NCBI GenBank assembly: GCA_903836515.1
Contig: CAILQW010000050.1
Span: 14,861 to 78,860, forward strand
Direction of reading: 5' to 3'
DNA: 64,000 bases
From: Candidatus Omnitrophota bacterium
GTDB taxonomy: Bacteria > Omnitrophota > Gorgyraeia > Zapsychrales > Fredricksoniimonadaceae
Shown here in pieces: positions 4,694 through 63,598 of this stretch. Below the pieces are notes generated by a model. The model did not search any database. It saw only the letters and a program-made list of their open reading frames with translations, and was not told the DNA's origin. The position numbers and the translations under genes are program-made. Numbering within the stretch: position 1 is the first letter of the stretch; every line of letters starts with the position of its first letter.

Positions 4694-5011
4694 TCAAAGT
4701 TCCAGAAAAGAAAGCACAGGCGTGTGCGGCGTGATGCTGACAATGACAGGCTTGAGGCCTTGCAGGTCATGGCGCAGGGAGGCCAGTTGCTGTGGGGTGA
4801 TGGTGAAAGTAACACCGTGACCGGCGCTGTCGGTATTCATGGCTTGCCCGTTGAGCGTCCATGTCATGGGGTTTGGGTTTAGGTCAATACCGCTGAAAAT
4901 CATTCCCGGCGCTTCCGACGAGGACGTGCGGCACACGCTGTCGCTGGCGAGTGCGGTTTCATTGAATATCGAGACAGCCGGTGAGGCCAATTTCAAGCGC
5001 TTGAGCCACAA
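4694..5011 (-). CDS. Mini-protein consisting essentially of the GIDL C-terminal module (family copy A)
   Basis: C-terminal 66 aa SGIDLNPNPMTW...TPQQLASLRHDLQGLKPVIVSITPHTPVLSFLEL aligns with the C-termini of four other ORFs in the window. The track start appears to be a non-ATG codon. An internal ATG (MIFSGIDL) would give 69 aa. Confidence 0.4.
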   Translation of the reverse strand: MWLKRLKLASPAVSIFNETALASDSVCRTSSSEAPGMIFSGIDLNPNPMTWTLNGQAMNTDSAGHGVTFTITPQQLASLRHDLQGLKPVIVSITPHTPVLSFLEL

Positions 5012-29627: not shown

Positions 29628-31070
29628 ATGAAGATTGCTATCCTCAACCCCTCATTTGGCAAGAACTTTGTCCGCGTTGCCCGCTGGGCGGCCCGGTCGC
29701 GGGGGCGTGTTCAGCGTCATCCCGATTATTTGCTCATCGCGGCCCAGGTCCTCCTGGATGCCGGCCATGAGGTGATTTTCGTAGAAGCCGCGGCATGCAA
29801 TATGTCACCGGAGGAAAGTTTCAAGGTCATCCGGGCGTTTACGCCGGAACTGCTCGTGATCCATGCCACGACCCCATCGATTTATGCGGACATGGAACAG
29901 GCCCGCACGATCAAGGCGCAGAATGACTGCCGGGTGGTCTTTGTCGGCCAGCATGTGAGTGCAGAACCCCTGAATACGTTTGAGATAGCCCGCGGCGCCG
30001 TGGATTATATCCTGCGCGGCGAATATGATCACTCCTTGCGCGATCTGGCCAATGGTTTGCCCTCTGGGGATATCAAGGGGATGAGCTGGCATAACGGGCA
30101 GACTGTTATTACCAATCCCGACCGTCCTGCCCTGGATGTGAACGAGCTTCCCTTCCCTGCCTGGCATTTGATCAAGCCGGAGTGGTATCCGGATGCGGGT
30201 AAGAAATTCCCATTCTTGACGCTGTTCACCGGGCGCGGGTGCAATAATGCCTGCAGTTTTTGCCGTGATCCTCAGCTCATGTATGGCTATCGTTTGCGTA
30301 ACCGTGATGCCCAACGGGTCGTCGACGAAATGGAATTCGACCTTCGGTTGTTCCCCGGTATCCGTGAGATCATGTTCGAAACAGATACTTTTGCAGCCGA
30401 TCCCAAACATGTTCAGGCGGTTTGCCAGGAGATCATCCGGCGGGGCCTTCACACGAAGATATCCTGGTCCTGCAATATGCGCATTAATACGGACCTTGCC
30501 CTGCTTCCTTTAATGAAGAACGCCGGCTGCCGCATGCTTATGGTCGGGTATGAATTCGGCACGGATGAGACCCTGCGCGCGGTGCGCAAGGGCGATGTGA
30601 ATGTGGCCATGGGCCGGCGATTCAGCCAAAGAGCTCATGAACTGGGGTTTACCCTGCACGGGTGTTTTATGATCGGCGCTCCCGGGGAAACCCATGAAAG
30701 CGCCCGCGCCACCATCGATTATGCCAAGTCCATGACCCTGGATACCATCCAGATCACAGGGATCGCCACATACCCTGGCACGCATCTTTATAGTTGGGCC
30801 AAAGAGAACGGGTATCTGCTGGCCAAGGACTGGACCGACTGGCTGACGGCGGAAGGCGAACAGAAAACCCTGCTGTCGTATCCCCAACTTTCCAACAAAG
30901 AGATCGATACCCTTATTGATACCGGCCTGAAAGAATTCTACCTGCGCCCCGTTCAGATGTGGCGCATGCTGGTCAGCATCCGTTCCGTGGGAGATCTCCT
31001 ACGGAAACTCTACGGCCTGGGGGCATTCATCGATTATTTCTGGAAGAAAATCATTCGGTCACACCCATAA
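29628..31070 (+). CDS. B12-binding-domain radical SAM protein
   Basis: N-terminal cobalamin-binding-like Rossmann region, then radical SAM CxxxCxxC motif (GRGCNNACSFC). 480 aa. Confidence 0.8.
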   Translation: MKIAILNPSFGKNFVRVARWAARSRGRVQRHPDYLLIAAQVLLDAGHEVIFVEAAACNMSPEESFKVIRAFTPELLVIHATTPSIYADMEQARTIKAQNDCRVVFVGQHVSAEPLNTFEIARGAVDYILRGEYDHSLRDLANGLPSGDIKGMSWHNGQTVITNPDRPALDVNELPFPAWHLIKPEWYPDAGKKFPFLTLFTGRGCNNACSFCRDPQLMYGYRLRNRDAQRVVDEMEFDLRLFPGIREIMFETDTFAADPKHVQAVCQEIIRRGLHTKISWSCNMRINTDLALLPLMKNAGCRMLMVGYEFGTDETLRAVRKGDVNVAMGRRFSQRAHELGFTLHGCFMIGAPGETHESARATIDYAKSMTLDTIQITGIATYPGTHLYSWAKENGYLLAKDWTDWLTAEGEQKTLLSYPQLSNKEIDTLIDTGLKEFYLRPVQMWRMLVSIRSVGDLLRKLYGLGAFIDYFWKKIIRSHP

Positions 31071-31679
31071 AAGACGGGACTGTTGTTGTCATCGGGCGGA
31101 TGTCAATGATGACCGGCGTGATGCCCGCGGCGTCCTGCAGGCGCTGGATCATGGCGGGGTCGAATTTATACTGGACAATTTCCCCATTATTATTCTTGAC
31201 GTTTATTCTGTCGCGGGTCAGGTCGATGCCGCCGGTGCCAGATTGAGACGCAGAATCGGGCAGAACAACATCGGGTATCCGGTTAACTGGTGATTTTAAC
31301 GAATTATCCCGAGGGGTGTTATTGTGTTTCGTTAGAAAATAATATAATTTCTCTTCATTCTTTACTGTAAAATCCCGTTTCAGCAGATCCTTTCTAAAAT
31401 ATCCGTTTAGAAATTCCTGGCCGGATGTTAAATCCGTAATATCAAACCCAGGTTTAATAAACGGTTGCAGCAATCAAAAAAATAATTGTTCAGATCCCCA
31501 TGGCTTAACCTTTTATAGAAACTGATGAGCATTTTTCTCAAGTCATCAATAACAAAGAAGGCGAATTCATCTCTGGACATACGACCTGCTGCGATACGGG
31601 CATCTTGAAAGTCGACTAATTTTAGACGGCTGATATATCCATCAGGGATTCTAAATTGTCCAAGTAGATTGATGTTCAT
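31051..31679 (-). pseudogene. Frameshifted small GIDL-module protein (family copy D, paralog of 62921..63598)
   Basis: Two overlapping ORFs in different frames on the same strand (31428..31679 and 31051..31473) reconstruct a ~210-aa protein. It ends in GGIDLTRDRINV...FDPAMIQRLQDAAGITPVIIDIRPM. The locus is AT-rich. Confidence 0.4.
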
Positions 31680-45817: not shown

Positions 45818-45820
45818 GAG

Positions 45821-46234
45821 CTATTCGACCCTCACAGCCGCGATATCGAGTTTGGATATGCCCAGGGCGGTCATGATATCCAGGACATCAACGACGTCCT
45901 TGAAGCGGGTCTGCTGGTCGGATCTCAGGTAAACGTTCAGGCCGGGGCTGGTTTTCTTCATGGCAGCGATTTTGCTCTTTAGCTCCTTGTGCGTCACGAC
46001 TTTTTCATCAAGGTAAACCATTCCTTCGCTCGTGATTGTCACAACCGTCTGCTTGACCTTGCCGGCATCCCGGGGTTCGGCACTCTTTGATTCCGGGAGC
46101 TTGACCTTGATGTTGGACTGATAAATAAGGGGGGTTGCCAGCATGAAAATGACCAGGAGAACCAAAATCACATCCGTGAACGGCGTGATATTGATCTCGG
46201 CGACGAGCGGGCGTGTGCGCGGACGCCTTTTCAT
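45821..46234 (-). CDS. exbD: Biopolymer transport protein ExbD/TolR
   Basis: 137 aa. EINITPFTDVILVLLVIFM TM, then the periplasmic domain. Confidence 0.8.
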   Translation of the reverse strand: MKRRPRTRPLVAEINITPFTDVILVLLVIFMLATPLIYQSNIKVKLPESKSAEPRDAGKVKQTVVTITSEGMVYLDEKVVTHKELKSKIAAMKKTSPGLNVYLRSDQQTRFKDVVDVLDIMTALGISKLDIAAVRVE

Positions 46235-46849
46235 GACCTGGCTCCGATCAAAAGATCGCGTGCTTCGGAAGCCGCGATGTCCATGTCCATCACAAAACGT
46301 TCAATCCGGCTTTGGCAGTAATTGAAGGCGATGACCGCAGGGACCGCCACACAAAGCCCGACGGCCGTGCAGATCAGCGCTTCCGCGATGCCATTGATAA
46401 CAACCCCCATGCCGCCAGCCCCCTGCTGGGCGATATCATGGAAGGCGCGGATGATTCCCAGGACCGTGCCAAAAAGGCCGATATAGACCGCGGTACTGCC
46501 GATGGTGCCGATGATGGCCGTGCGGCGTTCCAGTTTGATGGTTTCGATGGTGATCTGACGTTCCATGGCGTTGTCCATGACTTCGCCCGTACTGTTACGC
46601 AAGGCCAGCCCGGTACCGACAACAGCGGCAAAAGGGGTCTCGGTGTGCTGGCAGATCTCCTGGGCCTTGGTAAAATTGCCCCGGCGGATCTGTCCGGCAA
46701 TATCCATCATGAAAATGTCGCGCGTGACACGGGATGACCTGTAATAAAGAATGGCCCGTTCGATGATAACCGCCAGGGAAAGCGTGGAAAGGAACATCAG
46801 GAGGATGACAGTCCCCCCGCCCAGTTGCAGCATTTGCCAGAGTGACATG
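46231..46849 (-). CDS. exbB: MotA/TolQ/ExbB proton-channel protein
   Basis: Three TM. Conserved C-terminal channel region (AIIGTIGSTAVYIGLFGTVLGIIRAF ... GIAEALICTAVGL). The ATG at 46849 is preferred over the track start at 47016. Confidence 0.8.
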
Positions 46850-46957: not shown

Positions 46958-49106
46958 TTATGGGTTAACGGGGACCGATGGCGGGACAGCCGTTCCCGGG
47001 CCAAACAACGCATCAATCTTGACCGGACGCGGGCTTCCTACCGGAACTGGAAGAAAGCCTCGCAGGTCGCGTTGAAGGTGCAGGATTTCGGCGGGGTTAA
47101 ATTGAGAGCTGCCGTCAGGGCTCATCCCCATCACGTGAAGATAATGCCCCTGCCCCAGGTCAATACCGCCGTTGGGGGAAGCAGTGTCGATCGAAGTGGA
47201 TTCTTCACTGTTCCGGAAATGCTTCTTTAGAGCGAGCCAATGCCTGTTCAAAATATCGTTGTATATCTTCATCTTTGTTTTTGTGGTTTGATCATTCAAG
47301 TCCGTATGACGCGCGATGATCCTCATGAAAAGAGGAAAGAAAGGAAGATCGAGCCATAAGGAGATGAATGCCCCGCCTGCCGTGGCGGCGCAGATCTTGC
47401 CCACAGATGAATATTTTTTCCACCATGTCTTCATCCTGTCCGTGTTCCAGGGGGGCATATCATCCGTATCAGAACCGGATGTTTGCGCTTGATCCCTGAG
47501 CGTCCGGTAAGGCCGTGGTGGTACGAAACGTTTTGGCCATGGTTGAGCTCTGGATTTTTTTTGAAAGGCGTCCGCACGTGTTTTTTGTAACATATAAACT
47601 TCGGACATAAACATTTCAATTTTTTTGATTTTTTTAATATTATCACCCATAGACTCTTTGTGGGTCCTGAGAGCGTTAAACAGGTTGTTTAGCGCCACCT
47701 GATTGAACGTGTGATAATTGCGATGCAGGGCATCAGCCCCATTTGTGGATTTGAGTTTTTCCAGGAAATAACCGTAAGTATTGAGGCGTTGGTGGGTTTG
47801 TTGAGCCGCATCGTATTCCTGGTCGCTGTCTGTGGACATATCAAATTTTAGCTGGTAGGTAATTGTTTTATAATCTTCATTAAATCTTATGCCGTAGTTG
47901 TTATTGGCGTTATCAGGGTGCAGGGCTTTGTGAAAGGCAAGCCCGCCCGCGAAATATTTGCGTGCAAGAGGTTGTTGGGTCGTGCGGTCAAATTCTTCTT
48001 TCACGTAGTTGTAAACACCTTTCCGGTACGCCTGAAGGTATTGCGCGTATACCTGTTCCCTGGCGTTCTTCTGCGCGATTTCAAAGGCCGACTACCTTAT
48101 TTGTGCCTATATAAATCCGATTGATCAGACTGTTCTTTAAGCTGTTTTTGTACCACCCCGCCAGGATCAGGGAGTAAAAAATTTGCCGTAAGGGGGCAAA
48201 GTTTTTACCTTCGTTGACTTCTTTTTCGAGGATGGGGATGACGATGTCACGCAGGACATCCTTGATGATTATATTACGGGAGGACACAAGGTCCTCCCCT
48301 ACGCTCATGGAATTAACATTTTGTAGTGTAGGGGCGGACCTTGTATCCGCCCGTGCCATGTCCTTCTGTTGGGACATGGCTACGTCCCCGGCAGGAGCCG
48401 AGGATTCCGCCATGTCCTTCTGTTGGGACATGGCTACATAATCGCTTTCCAGCATTACCTTCAAATGGGCTTTTGTCACGAAGGCGTTGCCGTCGTGTTG
48501 ATATACTTCGGCTTCATCGGGGGTGATCCAGACCTTGTTGAAAGTATCCACCGGGATATCGGCATGGCCGAATTTCGCGTATACCTGGTTGTAAATGGTA
48601 TCCCAAAACTTCCGCCCAAGATCATTTTCCGGGTACATCAAGGTTGACATCACCTGCTTAAGGATGTAATCCTGCGCCAGCATGTCGCGCCCGGCATCGG
48701 TATGACTTAACGGATCGGCCATGATCCTGTTTTTTTCGGCGGGCGACAGGTTAACCCACAACTCGTTCTCCGGGACGGCCAGTCCTGCCAGGAAATATTT
48801 TACAAGACGGGTGGTCTCATCGGTCAACGTTTGCTCTTTCAGATCAGCCGTCCCGTTATCCACAATAAAATCGATCAGGAGAGGATCTTCAGGATGGAGG
48901 GACACACCCTTGAGCAGGACCGGCGTAACAGGTTCTGAAAGCCCGATCATCTCCCCCGGCTGGGGCAGATTAAAAACAGACTGGGCGTACCCCTGAGGAG
49001 GGATAATTATGTTAAAACAGAATATTGTTAGAATAATATATGTTTTAAGTCGTTGCATGGGTAGACCAATTGCCGGGAATTTTTGTAAAAAGTATAATAT
49101 ATACAA
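46958..49106 (-). pseudogene. Frameshifted paralog (~716 aa) of the N-terminal region of the giant protein, ending in the GIDL module (family copy E)
   Basis: ORFs 48081..49106 and 46958..48004 (same strand, different frames) are collinear with giant-protein residues ~40-400 (QPGEMIGLSEPV.. vs QPGAMVGLSPAY..; LHPEDPLLIDFIVD vs LHPEDPFRFDFMVH; DMLAQDYILKQV vs DLLAQDYLLKQL; KVWITPDEAEVY vs KVWIIPDRASVY; ARKYFAGG vs PRKYFSGG). The frame switch lies at about 48004-48081. The C-terminus is GGIDLGQG...FNPAEILHLQRDLRGFLPVPV. Confidence 0.55.
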
Positions 49107-53360: not shown

Positions 53361-54733
53361 ACCACCTCTCCTGGATCAACGGTGTTTATATCATCAGCTG
53401 TATCCTGTTCGCGTTCGGGCTGAAATTTCTTGGATCCCCTGAAACCGCCCGCCGCGGCAACTGGCTTTCCGCCATGGGTATGCTCTTGGCTGTGCTGGCG
53501 ACCCTGACGTCGCGTGAGATCATTTCTTTCCAGTGGATCCTGATCGGGGGTATTATCGGCGCATCGTTGGGGACCCTGGTGGCCTTGCGCGCGGGCATGA
53601 CCCAGATGCCCGAGATGGTGGCCTTGCTCCATGGATTCGGGGCCTTGGCCAGCGTTTTTGTGGACTGGAGCGCATACCACAACCACACGCCGGATAACGC
53701 GATTGTCGTCACCGCGATCTATCTGTCGATCCTCATCGGCGGGGTGACGTTCACCGGAAGTCTTGTGGCCTGGGGTAAGCTGAGCGAACGGCTTCCCGGG
53801 AAACCACTGCTCTTCCCCGGCCAGCAAATGATCAGCATCCTGACCGTTGCAGCCATAGGTCTGCTGGCGATCCCGTTCTTCCTGAATCCTTCTGTTTATC
53901 CGGTATTTTTATGGATCCTGGGCCTGTCCCTCGTCCTTGGCGTCCTCTTGGTGATCCCTATCGGCGGGGCTGATATGCCGGTGGTGATCTCGGTCCTTAA
54001 CAGTTATTCCGGGCTTGTGGCGTGCACCACAGGGTTTGTGATCAACAATATCCTTCTGATTGTCGTCGGGGCTCTTGTCGGGGCCAACGGGATCATCTTA
54101 AGCTACATCATGTGCAAGGCCATGAACCGTTCGCTCAACAATGTACTTTTTGGCGCCTTCACCGCACGCGCAAAGAAAGCCGCAGGAACGGCCAAGGGTG
54201 AAGTCAAACCCATCAGCCCCCAGGATGCATTCCTCATCCTGGAGTCCGCACGTTCGGTCGTTATTGCCCCCGGCTACGGTCTTGCGGTCGCCCAGGCCCA
54301 GCACGCGGTTCGCGAATTGGGAGAACTTCTGGAAAAGAACGGGGCTGATGTGAAATACGCCATCCATCCGGTGGCCGGCCGCATGCCCGGGCACATGAAT
54401 GTCCTTTTGGCCGAAGCCAATGTCCCCTACGACCAGCTGGTGGAAATGGAACACATCAATCCGCTGATGGACAGCGTTGATGTGGCCATTGTGATCGGGG
54501 CCAACGATACCGTCAACCCCGCCGCGATCCACGACAAGACCTCCCCCATTTACGGCATGCCCATCATTGAAACATTCCGGGCCAGGACTGTGTTTGTGAT
54601 CAAGCGTTCCATGGCGTCGGGTTTTGCGGGGATCGAGAATGAACTTTTCTATTATGACAATACGCGCATGATCTTCGGCGATGCCAAGGATGTGGTGCAG
54701 AAGCTTGTGGCGGAATTCAAGGCCGGGAACTGA
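53357..54733 (+). CDS. pntB: NAD(P) transhydrogenase beta subunit
   Basis: 458 aa. N-terminal membrane domain plus C-terminal NADP(H)-binding dIII (VIAPGYGLAVAQAQH ... GANDTVNP). Confidence 0.9.
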   Translation: MNHLSWINGVYIISCILFAFGLKFLGSPETARRGNWLSAMGMLLAVLATLTSREIISFQWILIGGIIGASLGTLVALRAGMTQMPEMVALLHGFGALASVFVDWSAYHNHTPDNAIVVTAIYLSILIGGVTFTGSLVAWGKLSERLPGKPLLFPGQQMISILTVAAIGLLAIPFFLNPSVYPVFLWILGLSLVLGVLLVIPIGGADMPVVISVLNSYSGLVACTTGFVINNILLIVVGALVGANGIILSYIMCKAMNRSLNNVLFGAFTARAKKAAGTAKGEVKPISPQDAFLILESARSVVIAPGYGLAVAQAQHAVRELGELLEKNGADVKYAIHPVAGRMPGHMNVLLAEANVPYDQLVEMEHINPLMDSVDVAIVIGANDTVNPAAIHDKTSPIYGMPIIETFRARTVFVIKRSMASGFAGIENELFYYDNTRMIFGDAKDVVQKLVAEFKAGN

Positions 54734-57700
54734 CCGGCAGGACCGCATCTGCGATCAGGGCGGGAAGATCGGTCACAGGCTGTATATCCATGATCACAGG
54801 GATCAGCCCCGGGATCGGCCCCTCCGGCAGCGGACGGCGGTATTCCGGGAACCGGATGCAGATCTCATCCCCGCCGGTGTGCAGTTCGGTATTACGCGGA
54901 TTCAGATCGATACCACCTTTATCAAGCGGCTGTATTGAATTCCCATCCAGAGCCGGCTTGGCAGAATAATCCTTCTTTTCCCCTGGGATCAAACCAAGTT
55001 CTTGGCCCATTTCAATGATGTGCTCTGCCATATAGATTTTTCGATGATAATGCCGCTGTGTTGTTGAATGTTCTGAAGAAATCCAATAGCTCAGATCATC
55101 ATAGCCATCTTCATCCATTCCAACAAAACCCTGACTCACATAATGCTTGCCTAAGGCATACGCCAGATGTGTTATGCCGCCTTCAACCGTACCAACAATA
55201 TCAGCGGCTTCCATTAAATAAAGGATGCCCCGTTCATGCGGTTGCGGCACAGGCGCAAGCATGATGGAATTCAAATATTGCTCAGGAATAAAATTCATGA
55301 TAGATTTTTCATCTTCAGAACGGCTGAATCCCCACCCTGCTAAATGATTCATGTTCGGCATAAGAATGACAAAGAATCCCGATTCAATCAACTGTTGAAT
55401 TTGCCGGGCCCCGTAGCGAAACCCGAATTCCGATAATCCCTTGGCTGTCAACTCCCCGCCGAACGGATTCAAAAACACAACCGGTCTTTTTTCGATATTT
55501 TTCTCAGCCAATTCGGCCAAGAGTCTTATTTTCTGATCGGCCTCAGAACCTGAAACTGTCGTCATATAATGATCGGTTACTCCCTGGTTGTTACCTGACC
55601 TGTGTGGAAGGCCGAGTTGCTTCAAAAGATTAAGGGTGGGGGCATATTGATTGTCATCGTTTATCGGGCTCAACACGTCATTTCCCACACGGATGATATC
55701 ATAACCTTTGCGTCCGTAGGCGTAGGGGGAATGAATATAAATAGCAGGTTGCTGTCTTTTAATGACATCCTGGATCGCATCTTCCGCCCTTTGTGAAAGA
55801 ATTTTTCTGTCAGCGTCATAACGGTGAATGATCATGTCAAACTTTACAGCGTCAAACATAAAAGGAGGTGTCACTTTTATCCGCGGATGATTATACAACT
55901 GCGTTTGTTTCGTATAAACATAGATCTCAAGCTCCGGGTTGTAATCCAGCAGTGCTTGAACGAGTGATCCATTGCGTATGATTTCATCTCCCAGGCCTTC
56001 ATCCAGATTATGGACCAGCAGGACATTTTTCTTGCCGGTCTTAAGAATTTCCTCAACTTTCTTATGAATTGCGGTCTTCTCGTTTTTCCCAAGGTCCGGT
56101 TTTTTCTCATTAATCAAAGGAATGAGTTGTTCAAGCCCTTGTCGAAAATCATTCAAAGATCCGGCCTCATGTATGTTATTTTTAATCAGTAAATTCCAAA
56201 AAGTAGCAACACGTCCGTGAACACGTGAACTCATTTCAGCAAAAATCCTCAACTGCTCAAGTGATAGTGATGCCCCATGAAACCCAATCCTCCCTTCTAG
56301 TTGGTAATAGATAAAGTTGTGCGGTGAACTATCCAGATTGAGCAGGATCGCCTTGATCGAAGGCCAATATTCAAAGAAACTTTCGCCGTAATGTTCCTTT
56401 AAGTCCATAAAACTCCCGTTAATTAAATAACCCATGCTTGTCGCATCCGGTTCCTTAAACATGAGCTTAAAGATGTCTCCAATTTCATCAAAAAACCTGT
56501 GACCAAAAATTTTCTTAACTTCAGGCAAAAACTTAAAATATTGTCCGGGACGCCGACCCGCCGATAAGATCGCGAATTCTTTTAAATCATCCCAGTATTG
56601 CGGGATTTTATCGTCAAACACATCAACGGCGATTTCCCATATTCCCCAAACGTCACGACCCAGATCATTCTCGGCCGCCATGGTCCAATACATATTTTCC
56701 AATTCATCCAGAATACGCCGCATATCCTCACGGGAATGGATTAAATACGGTTTTAACGTCTTCAGTGAAGATAAGGCCAACTCAGCACCGACATTGGGTT
56801 GACGAGCATCGTTTTCTATCGAGCTTTGAATCAGCTTGAGTCCTAATTCAGGAAAATACTCCAGGTATTCCTCATTGGAATAACCATCAAACGGCATCCC
56901 GCCATTTGTCGTAAAAAACGGTTCTCTCCATTGCCGCACGCCAGCAACAGTGTCAACAACCTCATAGCCATAACGTTTAATAATATCTTCTATCAGCTGT
57001 CTTTTATCATCTGGCAGTTTTTTATATAACGATTGGGCATAAAATTCATTCTTAAAAGAGCTCTCAGACCTGTTATTAACACCTCGTTTAGCCCGTAAAG
57101 CCAATATTATTTCCTCTGCCGGCATTGATACCGGAACTCCACCCAAACCATCAATAAAACGGTTCCCGTTCATCGCGCCATCTTTCTTCTCTCCATCTTT
57201 CCTGGACGATCTTGATCCGGCGGTTTCATTCTTCGCGGCATGGAATAGATAGAGATTCGGATAAAATGCCGCATCATTTGCGATGCGAAGGATACCCTCT
57301 ACTGGATCTCCAACCAGATTGTTTTTCTTCAAAAATTCTTTGATCCGCATTTCATAACTTGCTTCCGGGATATCATCAATAAGACCAGAACTCGGACCAA
57401 TAATTATCCGCCAGAGAGCCAGAGAATTTTTATTCTGCGCCAACTTTTCTTTAAGTTCATTAAACAACATAATGAATTCACCAGGTGTTATATAATAAGC
57501 CCGGCTGTTATAGGAGAATCCCCTACGACGAAGATACCACGCAAGGAATTCTTCATTATAAACGGCCGGTGCGTTAAACAGATACACATCGGCATCGCCC
57601 ATCTCGCGAGACTGCTCAACCTCACCGCCTATGGGAATCTGTCCGGTGTCCCGCGCATAGCGCACATTCCACGCGGTCAACAGATTATGTGCCGGATTGA

Positions 57701-60700
57701 TATCATAGTATGTGACCCTGCGTGCCCCTGACAACAATGCCAGCAGGACATCGATCCCGGTTCCGGGCCCCTGGACACGAACAGTCTTGTTTTTAAATAT
57801 CCCGGCATTCTCAATAACAGCTTTCTGAAAATCTGCACTGCGATTATGGCGCGCCGAGAATATCTTCTCATGTGGAAGAGCATCAAGCATAACTTCTTGA
57901 AGGAATCCATCCGTCTTCTGTTCTGTGTAAGGCTTTACTGTCAGAAGAGAAAGCTTGTATCCTTGATCCCTTCCTTCCACGTTCCGGGACGCATTAATAT
58001 CTTGTGTATTTTCCGGAGATAAGATCAGTCCCGACCAGTCTTTAAAAGTTGCCAGTTTTGTCTTATTGATGACATCTTGCGCGTTTTTCAATATCCAATC
58101 CATTTTTCCAGGGTAAGACCATAAGAAAGATATATCAAAAAGAATATTTTTATCTTGGATCGGATCCTCCACAACCAGCGCCATGGGCAAATTGTGGAGA
58201 GTGTCAAATTTCCCACCATAATTCCCTTCTTGGGAATTAAAAGTAATCAGAAAGGCACGTTGGCTGGCCACAGGTCTTTCTGTATCACTAAATGTTCCGA
58301 AAAACGCTTGGCCCGCCTCATTGAGACGGATGGGGATATACCCCCACGCATTGCCATCACTGTCCGTATGAACGTGCGTATACTCCTGCGCCAGCTTCTC
58401 ATAATTCATACCGGGCGTATCCGGGAACTTTGCCATGGAGCTCAAAATCTCCCGGAACATCGGCAGGAACGCATGCTCACCGATGGAATGAATATACTTT
58501 TCCAAGAAATCCCCGGAACGGTCTCTTGAAGGTGGCAATATCATTTCTCCTGATCCCTGATTACCCGTAATAATGGATGCCTTGTCTTCAGCCGCTGTTC
58601 CCGTTGCCTCCATCCTGCTCTGGCCTGGCTGGTTATTAATCCTCTCATCGGCATCATGATTCTGTGTGAACGCCGGATTGTTGCGCGCAAAAGGCTCAAA
58701 AAAGTCCGGATTCTTTGATGCCGCAACCAGAAAATGTCCGGATGACAGGATGTGATGCGCGAGCGCATAATAAAGGGCGGACTGATAGTCCGGCGATGTG
58801 CTTGTCCCGGCTTCCGCCATCACCGCCAACACCGGCTGATCCGATGTCATCAAGTCCAGGAATTCCGTCAGCTGTTTGATGTTGTTTCCAAAGAGGCTCA
58901 GCTCCGGTCGCCGGTACCGGTATTCAAGCGTATCATCGTAATATGCAAATTTTTGAAACACCGGCATTGTCATCTTCTGATTTGGCGCATACCCTGTCGC
59001 CTGAGCGCACAGCAGATTTAAGACAAGTGTCTTCAAGTCTTCGCGTGTTAACGACCCTTCAGGTTCACCGTAAAGCTGAACATGGCGATGGGCATCTATC
59101 AAAAAATCAACCGGCTTGTATTCCTTCCCGGATTTAAGAAAATTCCGCGCTCCCTTAATTTCAACCTCCGGATTTTCATGAAACTGAACCAGTGTCCATT
59201 GCCGTTTCTGAATAAAACGAGCCAACTTTATCAAGGCCCCCATTTTATTTAACTCAAACTTGATATCAATATGCGATTCCTCATCAATCAGATATCCCCG
59301 TACCGCAGCCCTCACGGCCTCCTGTTGTGCCAGGAATCTCAGATAATCCATGCCATTTTTAAAATCTCCTAACCAATGTCGCAGTATCTTTTCAAAATAA
59401 TTGCCGAATTGATTCAAATAAACCGAATCAAAACTCTTCAACGCATCAACCAGATCCTTAACGGCATCTCCCGGCATTAATAGCGTTTTGATCCGATAGG
59501 CGTACATCACACTGGGCATTCCGGGGATATTCATCCCCCACACCCCTGGTTGTCTATCAAGAAAAGCAACAACCTTGTCGATCTGCGCGCGGACAATGTC
59601 CCAGCGTGTTTCATCATAAAGCGACAACGGAGGGACCTTTTGAAAAAGAATTTCATTAATGCGTCTCTGTAAGTCCGCGATCAGAGGGATCACTGTCGGT
59701 AATGGCATGCCCTCTTGCTGTCTGATTTTGTAAATTTCATTGAGCTCTTTATCAATTCCAACTTTCTCCTGCGTAAGATCGCCGCCCAAACTCAAGACCA
59801 TCTCGACCATTTTTACATACGCATCAACAAGAATGAAATAGGAGTCTCTCTTAATATTTCCATCTTCCTTGGTATAAATCATGAATTTTAAAAGTTCATG
59901 ATTAAACCGTGTCCAATCTATGTCACGATCCACACTGGACGTCACTGACAATAAGCCCTGTATCCGCTCCAGGGCTGTTTCTATTTTCTCAATATTGGGG
60001 GCATATTCCGGCGCTCCTAAAAGACCAAACATCTTTTGGCGTTCGAAGATCTCTTGGGGGTCACGGGAAGTTCCCTGTAGAAGGAATTTCTGAATCTCTT
60101 GGCCATAAAACATACCCAAAATATTCATGTCTTCTTTACTCATATCAAAAGGCGATCCACCATTCGATAATTCCATATCGTTGGAAAACATCTTGAATAC
60201 AGGATCATAGGTCAACTCCTTCTCTTTCAACGGGCCGCCAACCGAGGGATGAGAACCTTCTCGTTTTGCCACCGGGACAAGCCAGCCTCTTTCTGGAAAG
60301 AATCCGTAGAAATTCCCGGTTCTTTTCTTGAGAATTTCCCGTTGCTTTTCAGAATAGGTTTTAAGGGCAATCATTGGCAAAGGACGGATATTCTCCACAG
60401 AACGCTCAACGCCATCATGATAGTTTTGCGCGGTTTGCACGACGTCTTCCGGAAGACCAAGATCTCGTGCCACCTCAAGTGCATGCGAATCATCCGGCCC
60501 CGGGTGCATCTGATGGGTCTGAACGATCTGGCCATCATGCTGGTCAATCTTAAAGTGATAGACCGCTGTAGTTTTAGGATCATTAAGCCTGGAATCGACA
60601 AAAAGGCTATTATGCGTCGCCACCCTCACCCTAGCTCCGCGTTTAAGCAATTCATTTGTAAGCAGTTGTAATTTTAAGGTATGTTCCTCGGGCGACAACC

Positions 60701-62918
60701 TTGAGAATGGTTCATCAAGACAGACCAGCGTTTCATGCGTCACGCCGGATTCTTCTGGAAAAAGTTTGGCAATTTCAATACGTGAACTTTCCCGATCATC
60801 TACGAAGGCTAATTTCTTATAGATTCGGAAGTTTCCATCTGCAAAGGGACCATATCCAAATGTCTGGACCATCTTTTGGATCAGATAGTCGCGTTTGAGC
60901 CCGGTAAAGGTCTTGCCGGACATATTTGCTCCCCGGTAGATCACCAGCGGCTTATCCTCGGGTGAATCATTAAGGACCTGACCTTCTTTTGGTGCGTACG
61001 GCATCCAGGCGTCCTTGTATCCAATATGCTCATCGAGATTGAATGTTGCCGGGTGAAATCCCTCCCGGCGCGCCCACCATGTAAAATGCAGAAAAACATC
61101 AATCCGTTCCACAGCCGCAGAGATCGCCTCGAGTTCTTTACGGCGTCCCGCCAGAGCCTTGTAATCCTTTTCTCGGGCATAGGATAAAAGTGTTGCAATA
61201 TCAGATATATGTGATCCCGTGAGCAAGGCGTCGGCTTCATCCGCCAATTCGGTTAATAAAGGATCCTCCAGTTTTTTGACATCCTGAAGGAAAGCCGCAA
61301 CATCCTCAGCAACCTTAGTGAAGCGCGAAAAAACAGGATGATTGACGTCAATATCCGTGGCATTCTGAACACCGATCACAATGAGCGGCTCGGTGGCCCC
61401 AGGCAAACGAAGAAACAAATTTATGCACCAACCGATCTTGCCTTGGAGTCCCTGACTTTTTTCCACCAACAGGGCCTGTTTATCATCATTCAGCTTTAAA
61501 ATACATTTCACCGCAGCCTGCCGCTTCAAGATATCCGCCTTGTTAATTAATGGCGCGTCAATCAGATCGCCGATCAGCCTGTGATGTGTCCAAAAGTTTT
61601 CTTCCTCAGGTTTTTGTAAACTGTCACGGATCTGCGCTGTGGCGGTAGGAAACAGCGCCCCAGACTTTTGCGAATCCGTTGGTTGTTTAGAATTTTCTTG
61701 TGAGGCATCATTGGATCGTTGCGACGCAATATCGGCGCGTGTCCTAACAATAACAGAATCGGTTGCTTTTTTACGCATCTTGTCTGGCAGTTGCAACTCA
61801 TTGCTGATTTGTTCATACTTCTCCACCACGCCGCCGGAAAAATATTTGCGCGGGATCATGGTCCTGGAGCCCTCGTCATAATCCTCTTTAATGAAATTAT
61901 AAACACCTTGTTGGAACGCCTTAAGATACTGCTGATAAATCTTCTGGTTGATCTGTTTATCCTGGGTATCTACACCTGCGGTCCTGTTGTGATCGGTGTA
62001 AATATCCTGCAGAACACTGCCCGCCACATGGCGCTTGTACCAGGTTGCGAGGATCACGGCGTTTGAGATCTGGCGCAGATGCGCGAACGACTTGCCGGTA
62101 TTGACCTCCCGCTCGATCTCGGGGATGATGATCTCCCGGATAATTTCTTTGGCGATATCGCTCAGCGGCGTCAGATCCTCAGGGCGTGCGTCCCCCAGCC
62201 CGTGCCGGGTGTGGCTCTGATTGGCCTCCAGGGCCAGATAATCGTTTTCCAGCATAACCTTATGGTGACATCCGGTCACAAAGACCGATGTTCCGCTGAC
62301 ATAGACCGACGCACGGTCCGGAATAATCCACACCTTGTGAAAGGTCTCCATCGGGATCTCGTTTGTCCCGTATTTCTCCCGGGTTTTATCCTTTACCCGC
62401 TTCCAGAACGTACGCCCCAATTCTTTCTCGGGATACATCAGGCTGGCGGTCAACTGCTTGAGGAGATAATCCTGCGCCAAAAGGTCCCGCCCTATCTCGG
62501 TTGCACCGAATCCCTGCGGAATAATGCGGTCTTTCTCATACGGAGAAAGGTTGACCCACATCTCGTCTTCAGGCACTGTCATGGCCGCAAAGAAATATTT
62601 GATCAGGCGGCTGGATTCATCCCGCAGACTATCCCCTTTAAGATTGTCATCCCCGGGATGCACCATGAAATCAAACCGGAACGGATCCTCAGGATGGAGT
62701 TTCATGCCGATCATCAGGACAGGATCATAGGCGGGGCTTAAACCAACCATGGCGCCGGGCTGCGGCAGGCCGGGGATCGTTTCAACCGCGGGCACAATCT
62801 GCTGTGCCTGCGCCTGGGACAATCCGGATGAAAAAACAGACTGACAGATAAAGGAGATCAAGACCGTCAGGATCAGGGTTTTCTCAAGAAATTTGTTTTT
62901 TAAATGAAAATTGTGCAT
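54717..62918 (-). CDS. Giant (2733 aa) multidomain protein: signal-like N-terminus + conserved N-domain + MutS-type ABC ATPase + class-I MTase-like + GT9 heptosyltransferase-like + C-terminal GIDL module (family copy B)
   Basis: Continuous ORF. MutS domain V match at about aa 600-840 (RGANMSGKTF Walker A; LVCLDEPFSRLSPEEHT Walker B region; ATHN). MTase motif I VRVQGPGTGIDVLLAL plus YYDINP plus DVYLFNAPAV at about aa 1710-1790. GT9-like LLVHNLDEGLGDEII ... VVFLNPFGGE ... VEGGITHLAYALGKHYVS at about aa 2295-2600. C-terminus is GGIDLNPRNTELH...IPGLIPVIMDIQPV. GC is visibly lower than in neighbouring genes. Confidence 0.7.
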   Translation of the reverse strand: MHNFHLKNKFLEKTLILTVLISFICQSVFSSGLSQAQAQQIVPAVETIPGLPQPGAMVGLSPAYDPVLMIGMKLHPEDPFRFDFMVHPGDDNLKGDSLRDESSRLIKYFFAAMTVPEDEMWVNLSPYEKDRIIPQGFGATEIGRDLLAQDYLLKQLTASLMYPEKELGRTFWKRVKDKTREKYGTNEIPMETFHKVWIIPDRASVYVSGTSVFVTGCHHKVMLENDYLALEANQSHTRHGLGDARPEDLTPLSDIAKEIIREIIIPEIEREVNTGKSFAHLRQISNAVILATWYKRHVAGSVLQDIYTDHNRTAGVDTQDKQINQKIYQQYLKAFQQGVYNFIKEDYDEGSRTMIPRKYFSGGVVEKYEQISNELQLPDKMRKKATDSVIVRTRADIASQRSNDASQENSKQPTDSQKSGALFPTATAQIRDSLQKPEEENFWTHHRLIGDLIDAPLINKADILKRQAAVKCILKLNDDKQALLVEKSQGLQGKIGWCINLFLRLPGATEPLIVIGVQNATDIDVNHPVFSRFTKVAEDVAAFLQDVKKLEDPLLTELADEADALLTGSHISDIATLLSYAREKDYKALAGRRKELEAISAAVERIDVFLHFTWWARREGFHPATFNLDEHIGYKDAWMPYAPKEGQVLNDSPEDKPLVIYRGANMSGKTFTGLKRDYLIQKMVQTFGYGPFADGNFRIYKKLAFVDDRESSRIEIAKLFPEESGVTHETLVCLDEPFSRLSPEEHTLKLQLLTNELLKRGARVRVATHNSLFVDSRLNDPKTTAVYHFKIDQHDGQIVQTHQMHPGPDDSHALEVARDLGLPEDVVQTAQNYHDGVERSVENIRPLPMIALKTYSEKQREILKKRTGNFYGFFPERGWLVPVAKREGSHPSVGGPLKEKELTYDPVFKMFSNDMELSNGGSPFDMSKEDMNILGMFYGQEIQKFLLQGTSRDPQEIFERQKMFGLLGAPEYAPNIEKIETALERIQGLLSVTSSVDRDIDWTRFNHELLKFMIYTKEDGNIKRDSYFILVDAYVKMVEMVLSLGGDLTQEKVGIDKELNEIYKIRQQEGMPLPTVIPLIADLQRRINEILFQKVPPLSLYDETRWDIVRAQIDKVVAFLDRQPGVWGMNIPGMPSVMYAYRIKTLLMPGDAVKDLVDALKSFDSVYLNQFGNYFEKILRHWLGDFKNGMDYLRFLAQQEAVRAAVRGYLIDEESHIDIKFELNKMGALIKLARFIQKRQWTLVQFHENPEVEIKGARNFLKSGKEYKPVDFLIDAHRHVQLYGEPEGSLTREDLKTLVLNLLCAQATGYAPNQKMTMPVFQKFAYYDDTLEYRYRRPELSLFGNNIKQLTEFLDLMTSDQPVLAVMAEAGTSTSPDYQSALYYALAHHILSSGHFLVAASKNPDFFEPFARNNPAFTQNHDADERINNQPGQSRMEATGTAAEDKASIITGNQGSGEMILPPSRDRSGDFLEKYIHSIGEHAFLPMFREILSSMAKFPDTPGMNYEKLAQEYTHVHTDSDGNAWGYIPIRLNEAGQAFFGTFSDTERPVASQRAFLITFNSQEGNYGGKFDTLHNLPMALVVEDPIQDKNILFDISFLWSYPGKMDWILKNAQDVINKTKLATFKDWSGLILSPENTQDINASRNVEGRDQGYKLSLLTVKPYTEQKTDGFLQEVMLDALPHEKIFSARHNRSADFQKAVIENAGIFKNKTVRVQGPGTGIDVLLALLSGARRVTYYDINPAHNLLTAWNVRYARDTGQIPIGGEVEQSREMGDADVYLFNAPAVYNEEFLAWYLRRRGFSYNSRAYYITPGEFIMLFNELKEKLAQNKNSLALWRIIIGPSSGLIDDIPEASYEMRIKEFLKKNNLVGDPVEGILRIANDAAFYPNLYLFHAAKNETAGSRSSRKDGEKKDGAMNGNRFIDGLGGVPVSMPAEEIILALRAKRGVNNRSESSFKNEFYAQSLYKKLPDDKRQLIEDIIKRYGYEVVDTVAGVRQWREPFFTTNGGMPFDGYSNEEYLEYFPELGLKLIQSSIENDARQPNVGAELALSSLKTLKPYLIHSREDMRRILDELENMYWTMAAENDLGRDVWGIWEIAVDVFDDKIPQYWDDLKEFAILSAGRRPGQYFKFLPEVKKIFGHRFFDEIGDIFKLMFKEPDATSMGYLINGSFMDLKEHYGESFFEYWPSIKAILLNLDSSPHNFIYYQLEGRIGFHGASLSLEQLRIFAEMSSRVHGRVATFWNLLIKNNIHEAGSLNDFRQGLEQLIPLINEKKPDLGKNEKTAIHKKVEEILKTGKKNVLLVHNLDEGLGDEIIRNGSLVQALLDYNPELEIYVYTKQTQLYNHPRIKVTPPFMFDAVKFDMIIHRYDADRKILSQRAEDAIQDVIKRQQPAIYIHSPYAYGRKGYDIIRVGNDVLSPINDDNQYAPTLNLLKQLGLPHRSGNNQGVTDHYMTTVSGSEADQKIRLLAELAEKNIEKRPVVFLNPFGGELTAKGLSEFGFRYGARQIQQLIESGFFVILMPNMNHLAGWGFSRSEDEKSIMNFIPEQYLNSIMLAPVPQPHERGILYLMEAADIVGTVEGGITHLAYALGKHYVSQGFVGMDEDGYDDLSYWISSEHSTTQRHYHRKIYMAEHIIEMGQELGLIPGEKKDYSAKPALDGNSIQPLDKGGIDLNPRNTELHTGGDEICIRFPEYRRPLPEGPIPGLIPVIMDIQPVTDLPALIADAVLPVSSRP

Positions 62919-62920: not shown

Positions 62921-63598
62921 CTAACCGCCTTTTAAGGCAACAGGCTGGATACCCAGGAAGCTCGACAGGTTATCCATGGGCTGAATATTGATGATCACAG
63001 GCTCAAGCCCTGGCGCGGACTGATAACGCTCAAGAACAGCCGGATCCATTCTGAACACCAGACCAGGATTGTCGGATATTGTCTCCAGGCCTAACCGTTC
63101 GGGGGTAAGGTCAATACCGCCGGTATTATCCATTGTCACGGGAGTCCCTTGGAAAGCCACGACATTAAGGGGGAAATATTGGAAGAATGCTGCATTCTTC
63201 CTCGCCAAGGACTGGAACTCAGGCGAAAGCTTATAAAATGACCCCGGAAAAACATCTTCCCCATGATTCCCAGAGCTTTCGCTGTCAGTTACTTTCGAAG
63301 GAATGTCGTTTGTCCCCGCCCATCCTAATTTCAACGGGATTAACATTGCCCGCCCCTGGCTATCAACCTCTAGTTCCAGGTCGAATTCTGACGGGATAGG
63401 CATATCCTTTAATTGTGCATATAAGACACGACGCCCCTCCGGCGTCATGTTGTCAAGACGCCCCTTGAGAGGATCTGAAGAAAAGAAGAATTTGAACAAA
63501 GGGTCCAGCGCAGTGCCAGGCTTAATGCCCCTGATATCACTTTTATTGACAGATACTCCTATAGGATGCTGATGCGCCTCTTTCAGTATCATGTCCAT
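62921..63598 (-). CDS. 225-aa GIDL-module protein immediately upstream of, and abutting, the giant gene (family copy C)
   Basis: Stop codon TAG at 62921..62923 is 2 nt from the giant gene ATG (62916..62918). C-terminal 67 aa GGIDLTPERLGLET...FRMDPAVLERYQSAPGLEPVIINIQPM share the module. Confidence 0.55.
   Translation of the reverse strand: MDMILKEAHQHPIGVSVNKSDIRGIKPGTALDPLFKFFFSSDPLKGRLDNMTPEGRRVLYAQLKDMPIPSEFDLELEVDSQGRAMLIPLKLGWAGTNDIPSKVTDSESSGNHGEDVFPGSFYKLSPEFQSLARKNAAFFQYFPLNVVAFQGTPVTMDNTGGIDLTPERLGLETISDNPGLVFRMDPAVLERYQSAPGLEPVIINIQPMDNLSSFLGIQPVALKGG

What the first reader, a model, noticed from the sequence alone, without database searches (positions are those of the whole stretch)
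46958..49106. Second, frameshifted copy of the giant protein's N-terminal domain, fused to its own GIDL module and sitting directly upstream of exbB-exbD
Two same-strand ORFs in different frames (48081..49106 and 46958..48004) together encode ~716 aa. These are collinear with residues ~40-400 of the giant protein, with blocks such as LHPEDP..DF, DLLAQDY(L/I)LKQ, PE(N/K)(D/E)LGR.FW, KVWI.PD.A.VY and (P/A)RKYF.GG. Nucleotide-level relatedness is visible. The antisense six-frame ORFs 48721..48996 and 62524..62730 translate to similar peptides (MILFFSAGDRLTHNSFSGTASPARKYFTRRVVSS vs MRSFSYGERLTHISSSGTVMAAKKYLIRRLDSS). This defines a novel N-terminal domain family, signal peptide plus ~300 aa, that I do not recognise. 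The frame switch at about 48004..48081 (..GTNKVVGL* then, in the other frame, AFEIAQKNAREQVYAQYLQAYRKGVYNYVKEEFD..) may be a genuine pseudogenising frameshift or a sequencing error. I see no obvious slippery heptamer there. The gene is immediately followed on the same strand by exbB and exbD with no tonB. This raises the untested possibility that a MotA/ExbB-type motor is functionally linked to this protein family.
Basis: partly seen in the sequence, partly recalled or inferred. Interest (0 to 1): 0.65.

Follow-up and report, generated by a model that had tools for sequence, protein, structure and literature searches.

The report
Frameshifted copy of an Omnitrophota protein family
This is a real but broken (one extra T) copy of a very large, so far undescribed protein family of Omnitrophota bacteria, built from a signal peptide, a conserved ~340-residue head, a variable middle and a ~65-residue 'GGIDL' tail. 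Its position next to exbB-exbD looks like a local accident of gene order, not a functional link.

Summary
ORFs 48081..49106 and 46958..48004 (minus strand) are two halves of one 699-aa gene. It aligns with residues 20-365 of the 2733-aa neighbour at 42% identity (E 1e-85), straight through the frame junction.

The break is a single extra T, giving GGC CTT TGA where two intact orthologues read GGC CTT GAA. The same base is present in at least five further public assemblies that are 100% identical. A random sequencing error is therefore unlikely.

The insertion creates CUU UGA, the prfB-type +1 shift site. There is no correctly spaced Shine-Dalgarno, no RNA structure and no conservation. I read it as a recent inactivating, possibly leaky, mutation.

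The gene belongs to a phylum-wide multi-copy family. The N-domain has at least 1908 database hits. The C-terminal GGIDL module has 6463 cluster representatives. Genomes carry tandem arrays. The variable parts are cytoplasmic-type enzymes and repeats. Neither module matches Pfam, NCBIfam, PDB or the searched literature.

The exbBD link is not supported: 1 of 78 N-domain loci and 1 of 47 informative exbB loci show it, and one close relative has PPase-exbBD with no such gene.

What the family does remains inferred.

The parts
46958..49058 (-). The whole gene: 699 codons once one T is skipped. It consists of a signal peptide, the N-domain, a variable middle and the C-terminal GGIDL module.
   Evidence: reconstruction and alignment; P0001, 703 aa, 82% identity over 98% of the length as one ORF.
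48981..49058 (-). Sec-type signal peptide MQRLKTYIILTIFCFNIIIPPQGYAQ (basic n-region, 14-residue hydrophobic core, PP..YAQ c-region).
   Evidence: Read directly from the sequence. The ..P...YAQ motif is conserved in the family consensus. AF2 predicts helix 5-29 in the paralogue. No signal-peptide predictor was run.
47942..48980 (-). N-domain (about 345 aa), interrupted by the frameshift.
   Evidence: HMM hits at 48360-49055, 48084-48317 and 47930-48082; 42% identity to the giant protein.
48081..48086 (-). Frameshift site CTT TGA. T 48083 is extra relative to the intact orthologues.
   Evidence: sequence; L001 has GGCC-TTGAAATC; L086/P0008 is in one frame here; the same base in other assemblies.
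48276..48437 (-). In-frame repeat and hairpin cluster in the variable loop of the N-domain. Two 29-nt direct repeats each encode VAMSQQKDMA, next to a 30-nt inverted repeat.
   Evidence: Contigs L002 and L005 and protein P0127 break or switch here.
47312..47371 (-). Hydrophobic segment (residues 563-582) about 70 residues before the C-module.
   Evidence: Kyte-Doolittle 19-residue window at or above 1.6. Soluble control proteins also reach 1.6-1.85, so this is weak evidence.
46994..47182 (-). C-terminal GGIDL module: GGIDLGQGHYLHV..FNPAEILHLQRDLRGFLPVPVG.
   Evidence: The profile finds 6463 cluster representatives.
46231..46848 (-). exbB/tolQ-like gene (205 aa), a neighbour and not part of the family.
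   Evidence: PF01618, 109 bits; gene call of 205 aa in L005.
45821..46234 (-). exbD/tolR-like gene (137 aa), a neighbour.
   Evidence: PF02472, 100.3 bits.
61818..62918 (-). Paralogous N-domain at the start of the 2733-aa protein.
54750..54926 (-). C-terminal GGIDL module of the 2733-aa protein.
62939..63133 (-). GGIDL module of the 225-aa ORF 62921..63598, immediately upstream of the giant gene.
   Evidence: An IS transposase lies just beyond it.
31057..31248 (-). GGIDL module of short ORF 31051..31473.
4703..4891 (-). Divergent GGIDL-type module (SGIDLN) of short ORF 4694..5011.

Best explanation
The two ORFs are one gene of an Omnitrophota-specific multi-copy family, recently broken by insertion of a single T.

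Shown:
- The intact form, seen in orthologues P0001 and P0008, is a single protein of about 700-820 aa.
- It consists of an N-terminal Sec-type signal peptide, a conserved N-domain of about 340 aa with a mixed alpha/beta fold, a fast-evolving middle part, and a C-terminal 'GGIDL ... FDPA ... G..PV' module of about 65 aa.
- In this lineage the extra T turns CTT GAA into CTT TGA A. Translation therefore stops after residue 325, inside the N-domain.

Inferred about the frameshift:
- The mutation is a recent loss-of-function event.
- Because CUU UGA is intrinsically prone to +1 slippage, a small fraction of ribosomes may still make the full-length protein.

Inferred about the family:
- Its members are exported by Sec.
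- The N-domain acts as a common envelope-located handle, either an anchor or a recognition domain.
- The unstructured C-terminal module acts as a recognition or docking peptide.
- Together these modules place many different passenger domains at one cellular site. The passengers include sugar-phosphate enzymes, NUDIX, methyltransferases, GGDEF, HEAT/ankyrin repeats and MutS-like ATPases.

The neighbouring exbB-exbD belongs to a conserved block of ion-motive genes (pntAB, H+-PPase, exbBD, nhaB). The family member sits inside that block in only some lineages.
For: Paralogy and collinearity through the junction.

One-base insertion relative to the intact orthologues: L001/P0001 and L086/P0008.

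The frameshift is in the genome:
- The exact 325-aa and 348-aa fragments are on record on 9 and 7 contigs from NCBI, JGI, ENA and Logan.
- L004, L006 and L007 are 100% identical to the window across the site.

Nothing suggests programming:
- The AAGG lies 8 nt, not 3 nt, before CUU.
- Local RNA folding has z = +0.62.
- The shift is absent from both orthologues.

The break is recent or the gene still matters: dN/dS after the shift is 0.32 against L001.

Family size and architecture:
- At least 1908 N-domain hits, nearly all labelled Omnitrophota and fused to many Pfam families.
- At least 588 loci in GTDB genomes, several per genome.
- 105 N-domains and 84 C-modules in 78 loci, always in the order N...C on one strand; 22 loci carry tandem copies.
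- 104 of 106 copies are intact.
- The C-module profile finds 6463 representatives, and in the best 150 it is almost always at the extreme C-terminus.
- Alone, the C-module is predicted unfolded (pTM 0.21).

No known family matches either module.

exbBD linkage is not general.
Against: - All assemblies that carry the frameshift are one clonal population at 100% identity and may share reads. No reads were inspected.
- dN/dS below 1 after the shift is also what a still-translated gene would give.
- The export-and-handle model is inference only. The passenger domains need ATP, GTP, SAM or DNA, which is odd for Sec-exported proteins.
- About 12 of 88 members have a strong hydrophobic helix after the N-domain. 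That would put the passenger and the C-module in the cytoplasm.
- C-modules also sit on short ORFs without a signal peptide, though these may be remnants.
- The N-gene-then-exbBD order recurs in one distant genome, L066, with pntAB upstream as here. The adjacency may therefore be old rather than accidental.
Confidence: 0.6

Rival explanations
1. Programmed +1 ribosomal frameshift of the prfB type. Ribosomes pausing at the UGA with tRNA-Leu on CUU slip to UUU and continue. The ratio of a truncated N-domain protein to the full-length protein would then be regulated, for example by RF2 level.
For: The junction is exactly CUU UGA, and the +1 frame restores full collinearity with the paralogue and the orthologues. 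A partial SD-like AAGGU lies upstream. The downstream half shows dN/dS of 0.32.
Against: The two closest orthologues are in frame with CTT GAA. None of 106 family copies in other genomes shows a frame change. The SD-like element is 8 nt rather than 3 nt from CUU. There is no stimulatory structure. Any single T inserted into CTT GAA would produce this hexamer by itself.
Confidence: 0.08
2. Sequencing or assembly artefact: the true genome has CTT GAA and the gene is intact.
For: The site is a short T run. All frameshifted contigs are 100% identical and might derive from overlapping read sets. Assemblies of this gene are error-prone in the nearby repeat.
Against: The same base appears in contigs produced by different pipelines and accessions: JGI 3300022555, ERZ27245625, ERZ27313161, ERZ1426688 and Logan ERR4194907. 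From general knowledge, consensus indels in a 3-base run are rare in short-read assemblies. The chimeric breakpoints lie about 300 nt away, not at the shift site.
Confidence: 0.07
3. The gene has become two functional genes. One is a secreted, C-terminally truncated N-domain protein (325 aa). The other is a separately initiated protein (GTG 48004 or a later ATG) carrying the hydrophobic segment and the GGIDL module.
For: Gene callers annotate both halves. Short ORFs consisting of little more than a C-module exist in this window. dN/dS of the second half is below 1. An AAGGTG lies 12 nt before the GTG.
Against: The break removes the last conserved helix and the invariant PRKYFSGG motif of the N-domain. 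The putative start lies inside conserved coding sequence and its SD spacing is poor. There is no precedent among 106 other copies. The short C-module ORFs may themselves be remnants.
Confidence: 0.15
4. The family is functionally coupled to the ExbB/ExbD proton motor. This would be analogous to the way the PorLM/GldLM motor energises secretion of proteins bearing a C-terminal domain in type IX secretion.
For: The N-domain gene is followed by exbB-exbD in the window, in L086 (ExbB 91% identical) and in the distant L066 (ExbB 52% identical). No tonB or tolA lies nearby. The analogy between a motor and a C-terminal signal exists in T9SS (general knowledge).
Against: 77 of 78 N-domain loci lack exbBD within 10 kb. 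46 of 47 exbB loci with at least 1200 nt upstream lack an N-domain or C-module. L087 keeps PPase-exbB-exbD-nhaB without the gene. exbBD is instead recurrently next to H+-PPase.
Confidence: 0.07

Closest known systems
prfB (release factor 2) programmed +1 frameshift site
   Same: Identical shift hexamer CUU UGA. Slippage of tRNA-Leu from CUU to UUU would restore the productive frame.
   Different: There is no Shine-Dalgarno 3 nt upstream (AAGG is 8 nt away). The shift is not conserved in orthologues. The site arose from a single T insertion. No autoregulatory logic is evident.
Type IX secretion cargo (Sec signal peptide plus conserved C-terminal domain, TIGR04183/Por_Secre_tail), driven by the PorLM/GldLM motor
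   Same: Many unrelated passenger domains share an N-terminal signal peptide and a conserved C-terminal module of about 65-80 residues. This is also the only known case where a MotAB/ExbBD-like motor serves such a family.
   Different: No sequence match to the T9SS C-terminal domain. The module is predicted unfolded, not an Ig-like sandwich. An extra conserved 340-aa N-domain is present. The phylum is Omnitrophota, not Bacteroidota. There is no conserved motor linkage.
Giant RTX/LapA-type adhesins of type I secretion (N-terminal retention module plus C-terminal secretion signal)
   Same: 'Bookend' logic: a conserved N-terminal module and a C-terminal signal flank a long variable region. Family members reach thousands of residues.
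   Different: No RTX repeats and no adjacent ABC transporter or membrane-fusion genes. A Sec-type signal peptide is present. The passengers are enzyme-like rather than adhesin repeats.
Two-partner secretion TpsA proteins (signal peptide plus N-terminal TPS domain)
   Same: A conserved domain of a few hundred residues directly after the signal peptide, on large variable exoproteins that often lie in arrays.
   Different: The predicted fold is mixed alpha/beta with long helices, not a beta-helix. There is no PF05860 hit and no TpsB neighbour.
Giant ORFs of Omnitrophota (West-Roberts et al. 2023, bioRxiv 10.1101/2023.11.21.568195; Seymour et al. 2023, PMC10066038)
   Same: Same phylum. The same unusual mix of HEAT, NUDIX, GGDEF, HAD and methyltransferase domains sits in signal-peptide-bearing long proteins. 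Their N-terminal regions are described as lacking identifiable domains.
   Different: Those papers do not describe this N-domain or the GGIDL module. Whether the >20-kb ORFs carry them was not tested here.
Rickettsia palindromic elements inserted in frame into genes (from memory)
   Same: Short hairpin-forming repeats sit in frame in a surface loop of a protein-coding gene (48276-48437).
   Different: Copies were found only inside this gene family's loop, not elsewhere in the window. Mobility has not been shown.

Membership tests
N-domain/GGIDL family of Omnitrophota (defined here) | N-terminal hydrophobic signal-like segment followed by the conserved N-domain (WVNLSP, FNKVWI, EVNxGxNF, PRKYFSGG motifs) | tested here: met
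   HMM positions 12-358 are covered by the two ORFs together.
N-domain/GGIDL family of Omnitrophota (defined here) | GGIDL-type module within the last ~90 residues | tested here: met
   (46994-47182; the protein ends 12 residues later).
N-domain/GGIDL family of Omnitrophota (defined here) | Single uninterrupted reading frame | tested here: not met
   One extra T at 48083. 104 of 106 other copies are intact.
prfB-type programmed +1 frameshift | Shift site CUU UGA, with the +1 frame giving the full-length product | tested here: met
prfB-type programmed +1 frameshift | Shine-Dalgarno-like element about 3 nt upstream of CUU | tested here: not met
   Only AAGG(U), 8 nt upstream. The organism's 16S 3' end is not in the window.
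prfB-type programmed +1 frameshift | Conservation of the shift in orthologues | tested here: not met
   L001/P0001 and L086/P0008 are in frame.
prfB-type programmed +1 frameshift | Measured frameshifting efficiency above background | not testable with these tools
   Needs a reporter assay or a proteome.
Pseudogene | Reading frame disrupted relative to intact orthologues | tested here: met
Pseudogene | Relaxed selection after the break | tested here: inconclusive
   dN/dS is 0.32 after the shift against 0.13 before. The comparison spans mostly pre-break history, and no polymorphism was found among the frameshifted contigs compared at DNA level (L004, L006, L007).
MotA/ExbB/TolQ - ExbD/TolR proton-channel pair (the neighbours) | Pfam PF01618 and PF02472 above gathering score, adjacent and co-directional | tested here: met
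   109 and 100.3 bits.
MotA/ExbB/TolQ - ExbD/TolR proton-channel pair (the neighbours) | Assignment to the TonB system (ExbB/ExbD equivalogs, tonB nearby) or to Tol-Pal (tolA, tolB, pal nearby) | tested here: not met
   All NCBIfam equivalog scores are below cut-off (TolQ 113.6 against 221; ExbB 82.9 against 206). No TonB or TolA domain appears among called neighbours within ~8 kb. The rest of the window was not scanned exhaustively.
Type IX secretion C-terminal domain | Match to TIGR04183/Pfam CTD models; folded beta-sandwich | tested here: not met
   No consistent NCBIfam or Pfam hit in 51 modules. The AF2 model is unfolded.
Two-partner secretion TPS domain | PF05860 match, beta-helix fold | tested here: not met
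   No Pfam hit. AF2 predicts helices plus two beta-hairpins. Foldseek against PDB finds nothing with E < 0.5.

The most novel reading that the evidence does not exclude
The N-domain and the GGIDL tail are the two address labels of a phylum-wide, undescribed protein-sorting or delivery system of the host-dependent Omnitrophota. The system would export dozens of cytoplasmic-type enzymes, nucleotide-signalling domains, DNA-binding domains and ankyrin/HEAT repeat proteins per genome. Their destination would be the cell surface or a partner or prey cell, which would make this an effector repertoire with its own targeting code. The frameshifted copy would then be one snapshot of birth-and-death turnover in that repertoire.
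Probability: 0.2. Interest if true: 0.85.

Novelty: new variant of a known kind. Interest (0 to 1): 0.5.

Why it matters
The frameshift and the exbBD adjacency are minor in themselves.

What matters is the family they expose. It has two conserved terminal modules with no match in Pfam, NCBIfam, PDB or the searched literature. The C-module alone has thousands of sequence clusters. Copies lie in tandem arrays in genomes of an uncultivated phylum thought to live on other cells. The modules are attached to passenger domains that normally work inside a cytoplasm.

Defining these modules would give a sequence handle for cataloguing a large share of the 'hypothetical' long proteins of Omnitrophota. 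It would also make it possible to ask where those proteins go. That bears on the open question of how these nanobacteria interact with hosts.

Tried and rejected
- Profile searches of both modules against PDB sequences, Pfam and NCBIfam: nothing in the N-domain, and only scattered chance hits for the C-module.
- Word-indexed homologue search with the 225-aa C-module ORF: only 4 hits, so it was too insensitive. It was replaced by the exhaustive profile search.
- Stimulatory RNA structure at the shift site: none. Rfam and tRNA scans of the window: empty.
- Promoter and terminator scan of 45.7-49.4 kb: counts at chance level, so not used.
- 'Periplasmic sensor flanked by two TM helices' model for the N-domain. 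The crude hydropathy count gave 1 TM after the domain in 28 of 89 proteins. Soluble control proteins reach the same score, and only about 12 are strong, so the model fits at most a minority.
- 'C-module occurs on proteins without a signal peptide, hence it acts in the cytoplasm'. Weakened, because many such database entries are 5'-truncated fragments. The window's short ORFs may also be remnants next to an IS element or of a P0015-like gene.
- P0002 (869 aa, N-domain fused to a CX3CX2C radical-SAM-like motif, read by eye) as an alternative structure of this gene. Its contig L002 and the reciprocal L005, from the same sample, diverge from the window exactly at the 29-nt repeat. L001, L004 and L006 support the window's arrangement. 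P0002 was therefore treated as an assembly chimera or a recombinant, left unresolved.
- Literature searches for GGIDL, and for Omnitrophota with N-terminal domain, sorting or giant genes: no description of these modules.
Full report
**1. The observation**

On the minus strand, ORF 48081..49106 and ORF 46958..48004 lie in different frames. The plausible start is ATG 49058, giving MQRLKTYIILTIFCFNIIIPPQGYAQ....

Frame A reads ...GGC CTT TGA, with CTT at 48086-48084 and TGA at 48083-48081. If the T at 48083 is skipped, the next codons are GAA ATC GCG (E I A). The joined product has 699 residues.

BLASTP of this product against the 2733-aa protein encoded at 54717..62918 gives 42% identity and 62% positives, with E = 1e-85. 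Residues 4-374 align with residues 20-365, and the alignment runs through the junction with no gap (GTNKVVGLEIAQKNAREQVYAQY against DHNRTAGVDTQDKQINQKIYQQY).

The DNA itself is 66% identical over 297 nt (E = 3e-20). That follows automatically from the DNA similarity. The paralogy, the frame change and the C-terminal GGIDL motif are therefore all real.

**2. The frameshift**

The best database relative is P0001 (703 aa, 82% identical over 98% of the length), and it is one ORF. Its contig L001 is 88% identical in DNA and reads GGCC-TTGAAATC where the window has GGCCTTTGAAATC. That is a one-base difference.

A second relative is L086, which encodes P0008 (817 aa). Its ExbB is 91% identical to the window's, so it is the positional orthologue. 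It is also in one frame across the site.

The exact 325-aa and 348-aa fragments of the window are on record on 9 and 7 contigs from NCBI, JGI, ENA and Logan. Contigs from JGI 3300022555, ERZ27245625 and Logan ERR4194907 are 100% identical to the window across 48083. ERZ27313161 and ERZ1426688 carry the same split gene calls. The extra T is therefore very probably in the genome of this population. The caveat is that all these contigs are clonal and no reads could be inspected.

The insertion creates CUU UGA, the shift site of prfB (established knowledge). The other hallmarks of a programmed event are missing:
- The only SD-like element (AAGG) is 8 nt upstream of CUU, not 3 nt.
- The surrounding 141 nt fold no better than shuffled sequence (z = +0.62).
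- Both orthologues, and all other family copies examined, lack a frame change.

dN/dS against L001 is 0.13 before the shift and 0.32 after it. That fits a recent break or continuing use, and it does not discriminate between the two.

My reading is a recent inactivating insertion that may be slightly leaky because of the hexamer it happens to create.

**3. The family**

Nearly all named ones are Candidatus Omnitrophota/Omnitrophica. They are typically 42-65% identical over the first ~370 residues only.

Behind the N-domain, the precomputed Pfam annotations show a wide range of passengers:
- phosphoglucomutase, phosphoglucose isomerase, ROK kinase, NDK and aldose epimerase;
- sugar epimerases, glycogen-synthase-like domains, HAD, NUDIX and methyltransferases;
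- GGDEF, HD/HDOD, and HEAT and ankyrin repeats.

The window's giant protein adds a MutS-type ATPase.

Neither Pfam nor NCBIfam recognises the N-domain.

An AlphaFold2 model was built from 68 sequences (pLDDT 74, pTM 0.68). It shows an N-terminal helix, two beta-hairpins and several long helices. Foldseek against PDB gives nothing better than E = 0.58. A profile search of PDB sequences gives nothing within the domain.

In those 78 loci there are 105 N-domains and 84 C-modules, always in the order N...C on one strand. 22 loci carry tandem copies. 104 of 106 copies are uninterrupted.

**4. The C-terminal module**

The module has the pattern GGIDL, about 20 variable residues, (F)DPA, about 10 residues, G..PVI..I.P, then ..LLG. 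It is often followed by an acidic tail ending LSxLN.

A 77-position profile searched exhaustively against 1.84 billion cluster representatives finds 6463 proteins at E <= 1e-3 and 3078 at E <= 1e-10. These proteins are 72 to 3551 aa long. In the best 150 the match is almost always within a few residues of the C-terminus.

The module on its own is not predicted to fold (pTM 0.21). It matches nothing consistent in Pfam, NCBIfam or PDB.

The window contains five such modules: 4703-4891, 31057-31248, 46994-47182, 54750-54926 and 62939-63133. Three sit on short ORFs without an N-domain. These may be remnants:
- One abuts a transposase just outside the window.
- Another matches only the last 77 residues of a full-length member.
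- Many database 'C-only' entries are truncated fragments.

**5. How the family may work (inferred)**

The N-terminus has the features of a cleavable Sec signal: a basic n-region, a hydrophobic core of about 14 residues, a Pro-rich c-region and a nearly invariant YAQ.

Most members have no convincing further transmembrane helix. About 12 of 88 have a strong one, often directly after the N-domain. The simplest model is that the proteins are exported. In that model the N-domain is a shared envelope handle, and the unfolded C-module is a recognition or docking peptide.

The difficulty is that the passengers are of cytoplasmic type: ATP-, GTP- and SAM-dependent enzymes, HTH and receiver domains. 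This leaves three possibilities open:
- delivery into another cell;
- an unusual compartment;
- for the minority with a second helix, a cytoplasmic location of the passenger and the tail.

None of these could be tested here.

**6. exbB-exbD**

The neighbours are bona fide MotA/ExbB and ExbD family proteins. They fall below every TolQ/ExbB equivalog cut-off. There is no TonB or TolA domain among the called neighbours.

The linkage tests gave these results:
- Of 78 N-domain loci (1.27 Mb in total), only L066 has exbB/exbD within 10 kb.
- Of 80 loci found with the window's ExbB, 47 have at least 1200 nt upstream. Only L086 has an N-domain or C-module there.
- L087 (ExbB 79% identical, PPase 90% identical) has H+-PPase, exbB, exbD, nhaB and an FMN reductase in the same order as the window, but with only 150 nt between PPase and exbB.

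The family member is thus an optional occupant of a block of ion-motive genes: pntAB, H+-PPase, exbBD and nhaB. L066, a distant genome with pntAB, then an N-domain gene, then exbBD, shows that the arrangement can recur or persist. There is nevertheless no general association.

**7. Literature**

I searched full text for GGIDL, and for Omnitrophota together with N-terminal domain, signal peptide, sorting or giant genes. I also read the relevant passages of West-Roberts et al. 2023, Seymour et al. 2023 and a 2026 preprint on complete Omnitrophota genomes. None describes these modules.

West-Roberts et al. note that the N-terminal regions of giant ORFs 'generally lack identifiable domains'. They list the same unusual passenger domains. 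A connection is therefore plausible but untested.

**8. Verdict**

The paralogy and the 'unrecognised domain family' are supported. The frameshift is real and best read as a recent, possibly leaky, inactivation. The exbBD hypothesis is not supported.

The locus itself is ordinary. The family it belongs to is large, undescribed and odd enough to deserve a dedicated study.

Noticed in passing
window 48276-48437 (minus-strand gene loop); loci L002, L005; protein P0127: The variable loop of the N-domain holds two 29-nt direct repeats, each a 9-bp hairpin encoding VAMSQQKDMA, and a 30-nt inverted repeat, all in frame. Similar loop peptides (VAMSHQKDMAESSAPAEDV..RADTRSAPT) recur in paralogues from other genomes. 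Three public contigs or proteins switch to other sequence exactly here, two of them reciprocally in one sample. This is either assembly chimerism or recombination between paralogues.
   Followed up: partly
window 4694-5011(-), 31051-31473(-), 62921-63598(-): Three short ORFs carry a GGIDL-type C-module but no N-domain and no signal peptide. The last is 2 nt from the start of the giant gene and abuts a Transposase_mut gene just beyond the window end (L166). The second matches only the last 77 aa of P0015. They may be gene remnants or stand-alone module proteins.
   Followed up: partly
window 44360-54733; loci L087, L097, L105, L124, L139 and others: exbB-exbD sits in a block of ion-motive genes: pntAB, H+-PPase, exbBD and nhaB. 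In 13 of 80 exbB loci from metagenomes, a distantly related H+-PPase (29-43% identical) lies just downstream of exbD. This is a recurrent PPase-ExbBD linkage without tonB.
   Followed up: partly
window 56000-62000: The interior of the 2733-aa gene is markedly AT-richer (GC 0.43-0.47) than the rest of the window (0.50-0.56) and has negative GC skew.
   Followed up: no
window 54717-62918: The giant protein combines the N-domain and C-module with a MutS domain V ATPase (residues 660-835) and a second weak KamC/MutS-like ATPase hit (1295-1398). Most of its length has no Pfam match.
   Followed up: no
locus L053 11040-12698: One N-domain gene in another Omnitrophota MAG is interrupted by a single in-frame stop codon between HMM positions 131 and 133. 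It is the only other disrupted copy among 106.
   Followed up: no
window 46958-49058 versus L001: Synonymous divergence of the N-domain part (dS 0.21) is about half that of the middle and C-terminal parts (0.42-0.67). The first 25 residues and the upstream neighbour also differ between the two genomes. This suggests a mosaic history or gene conversion among paralogues.
   Followed up: no
C-termini of P0034, P0036-type hits: Many C-modules are followed by an acidic stretch and a terminal motif [FLV]x[LV]S[QSK][LM]N, which may be a further signal.
   Followed up: no
window 1-64000: No Rfam family at gathering score and no tRNA gene in 64 kb.
   Followed up: yes
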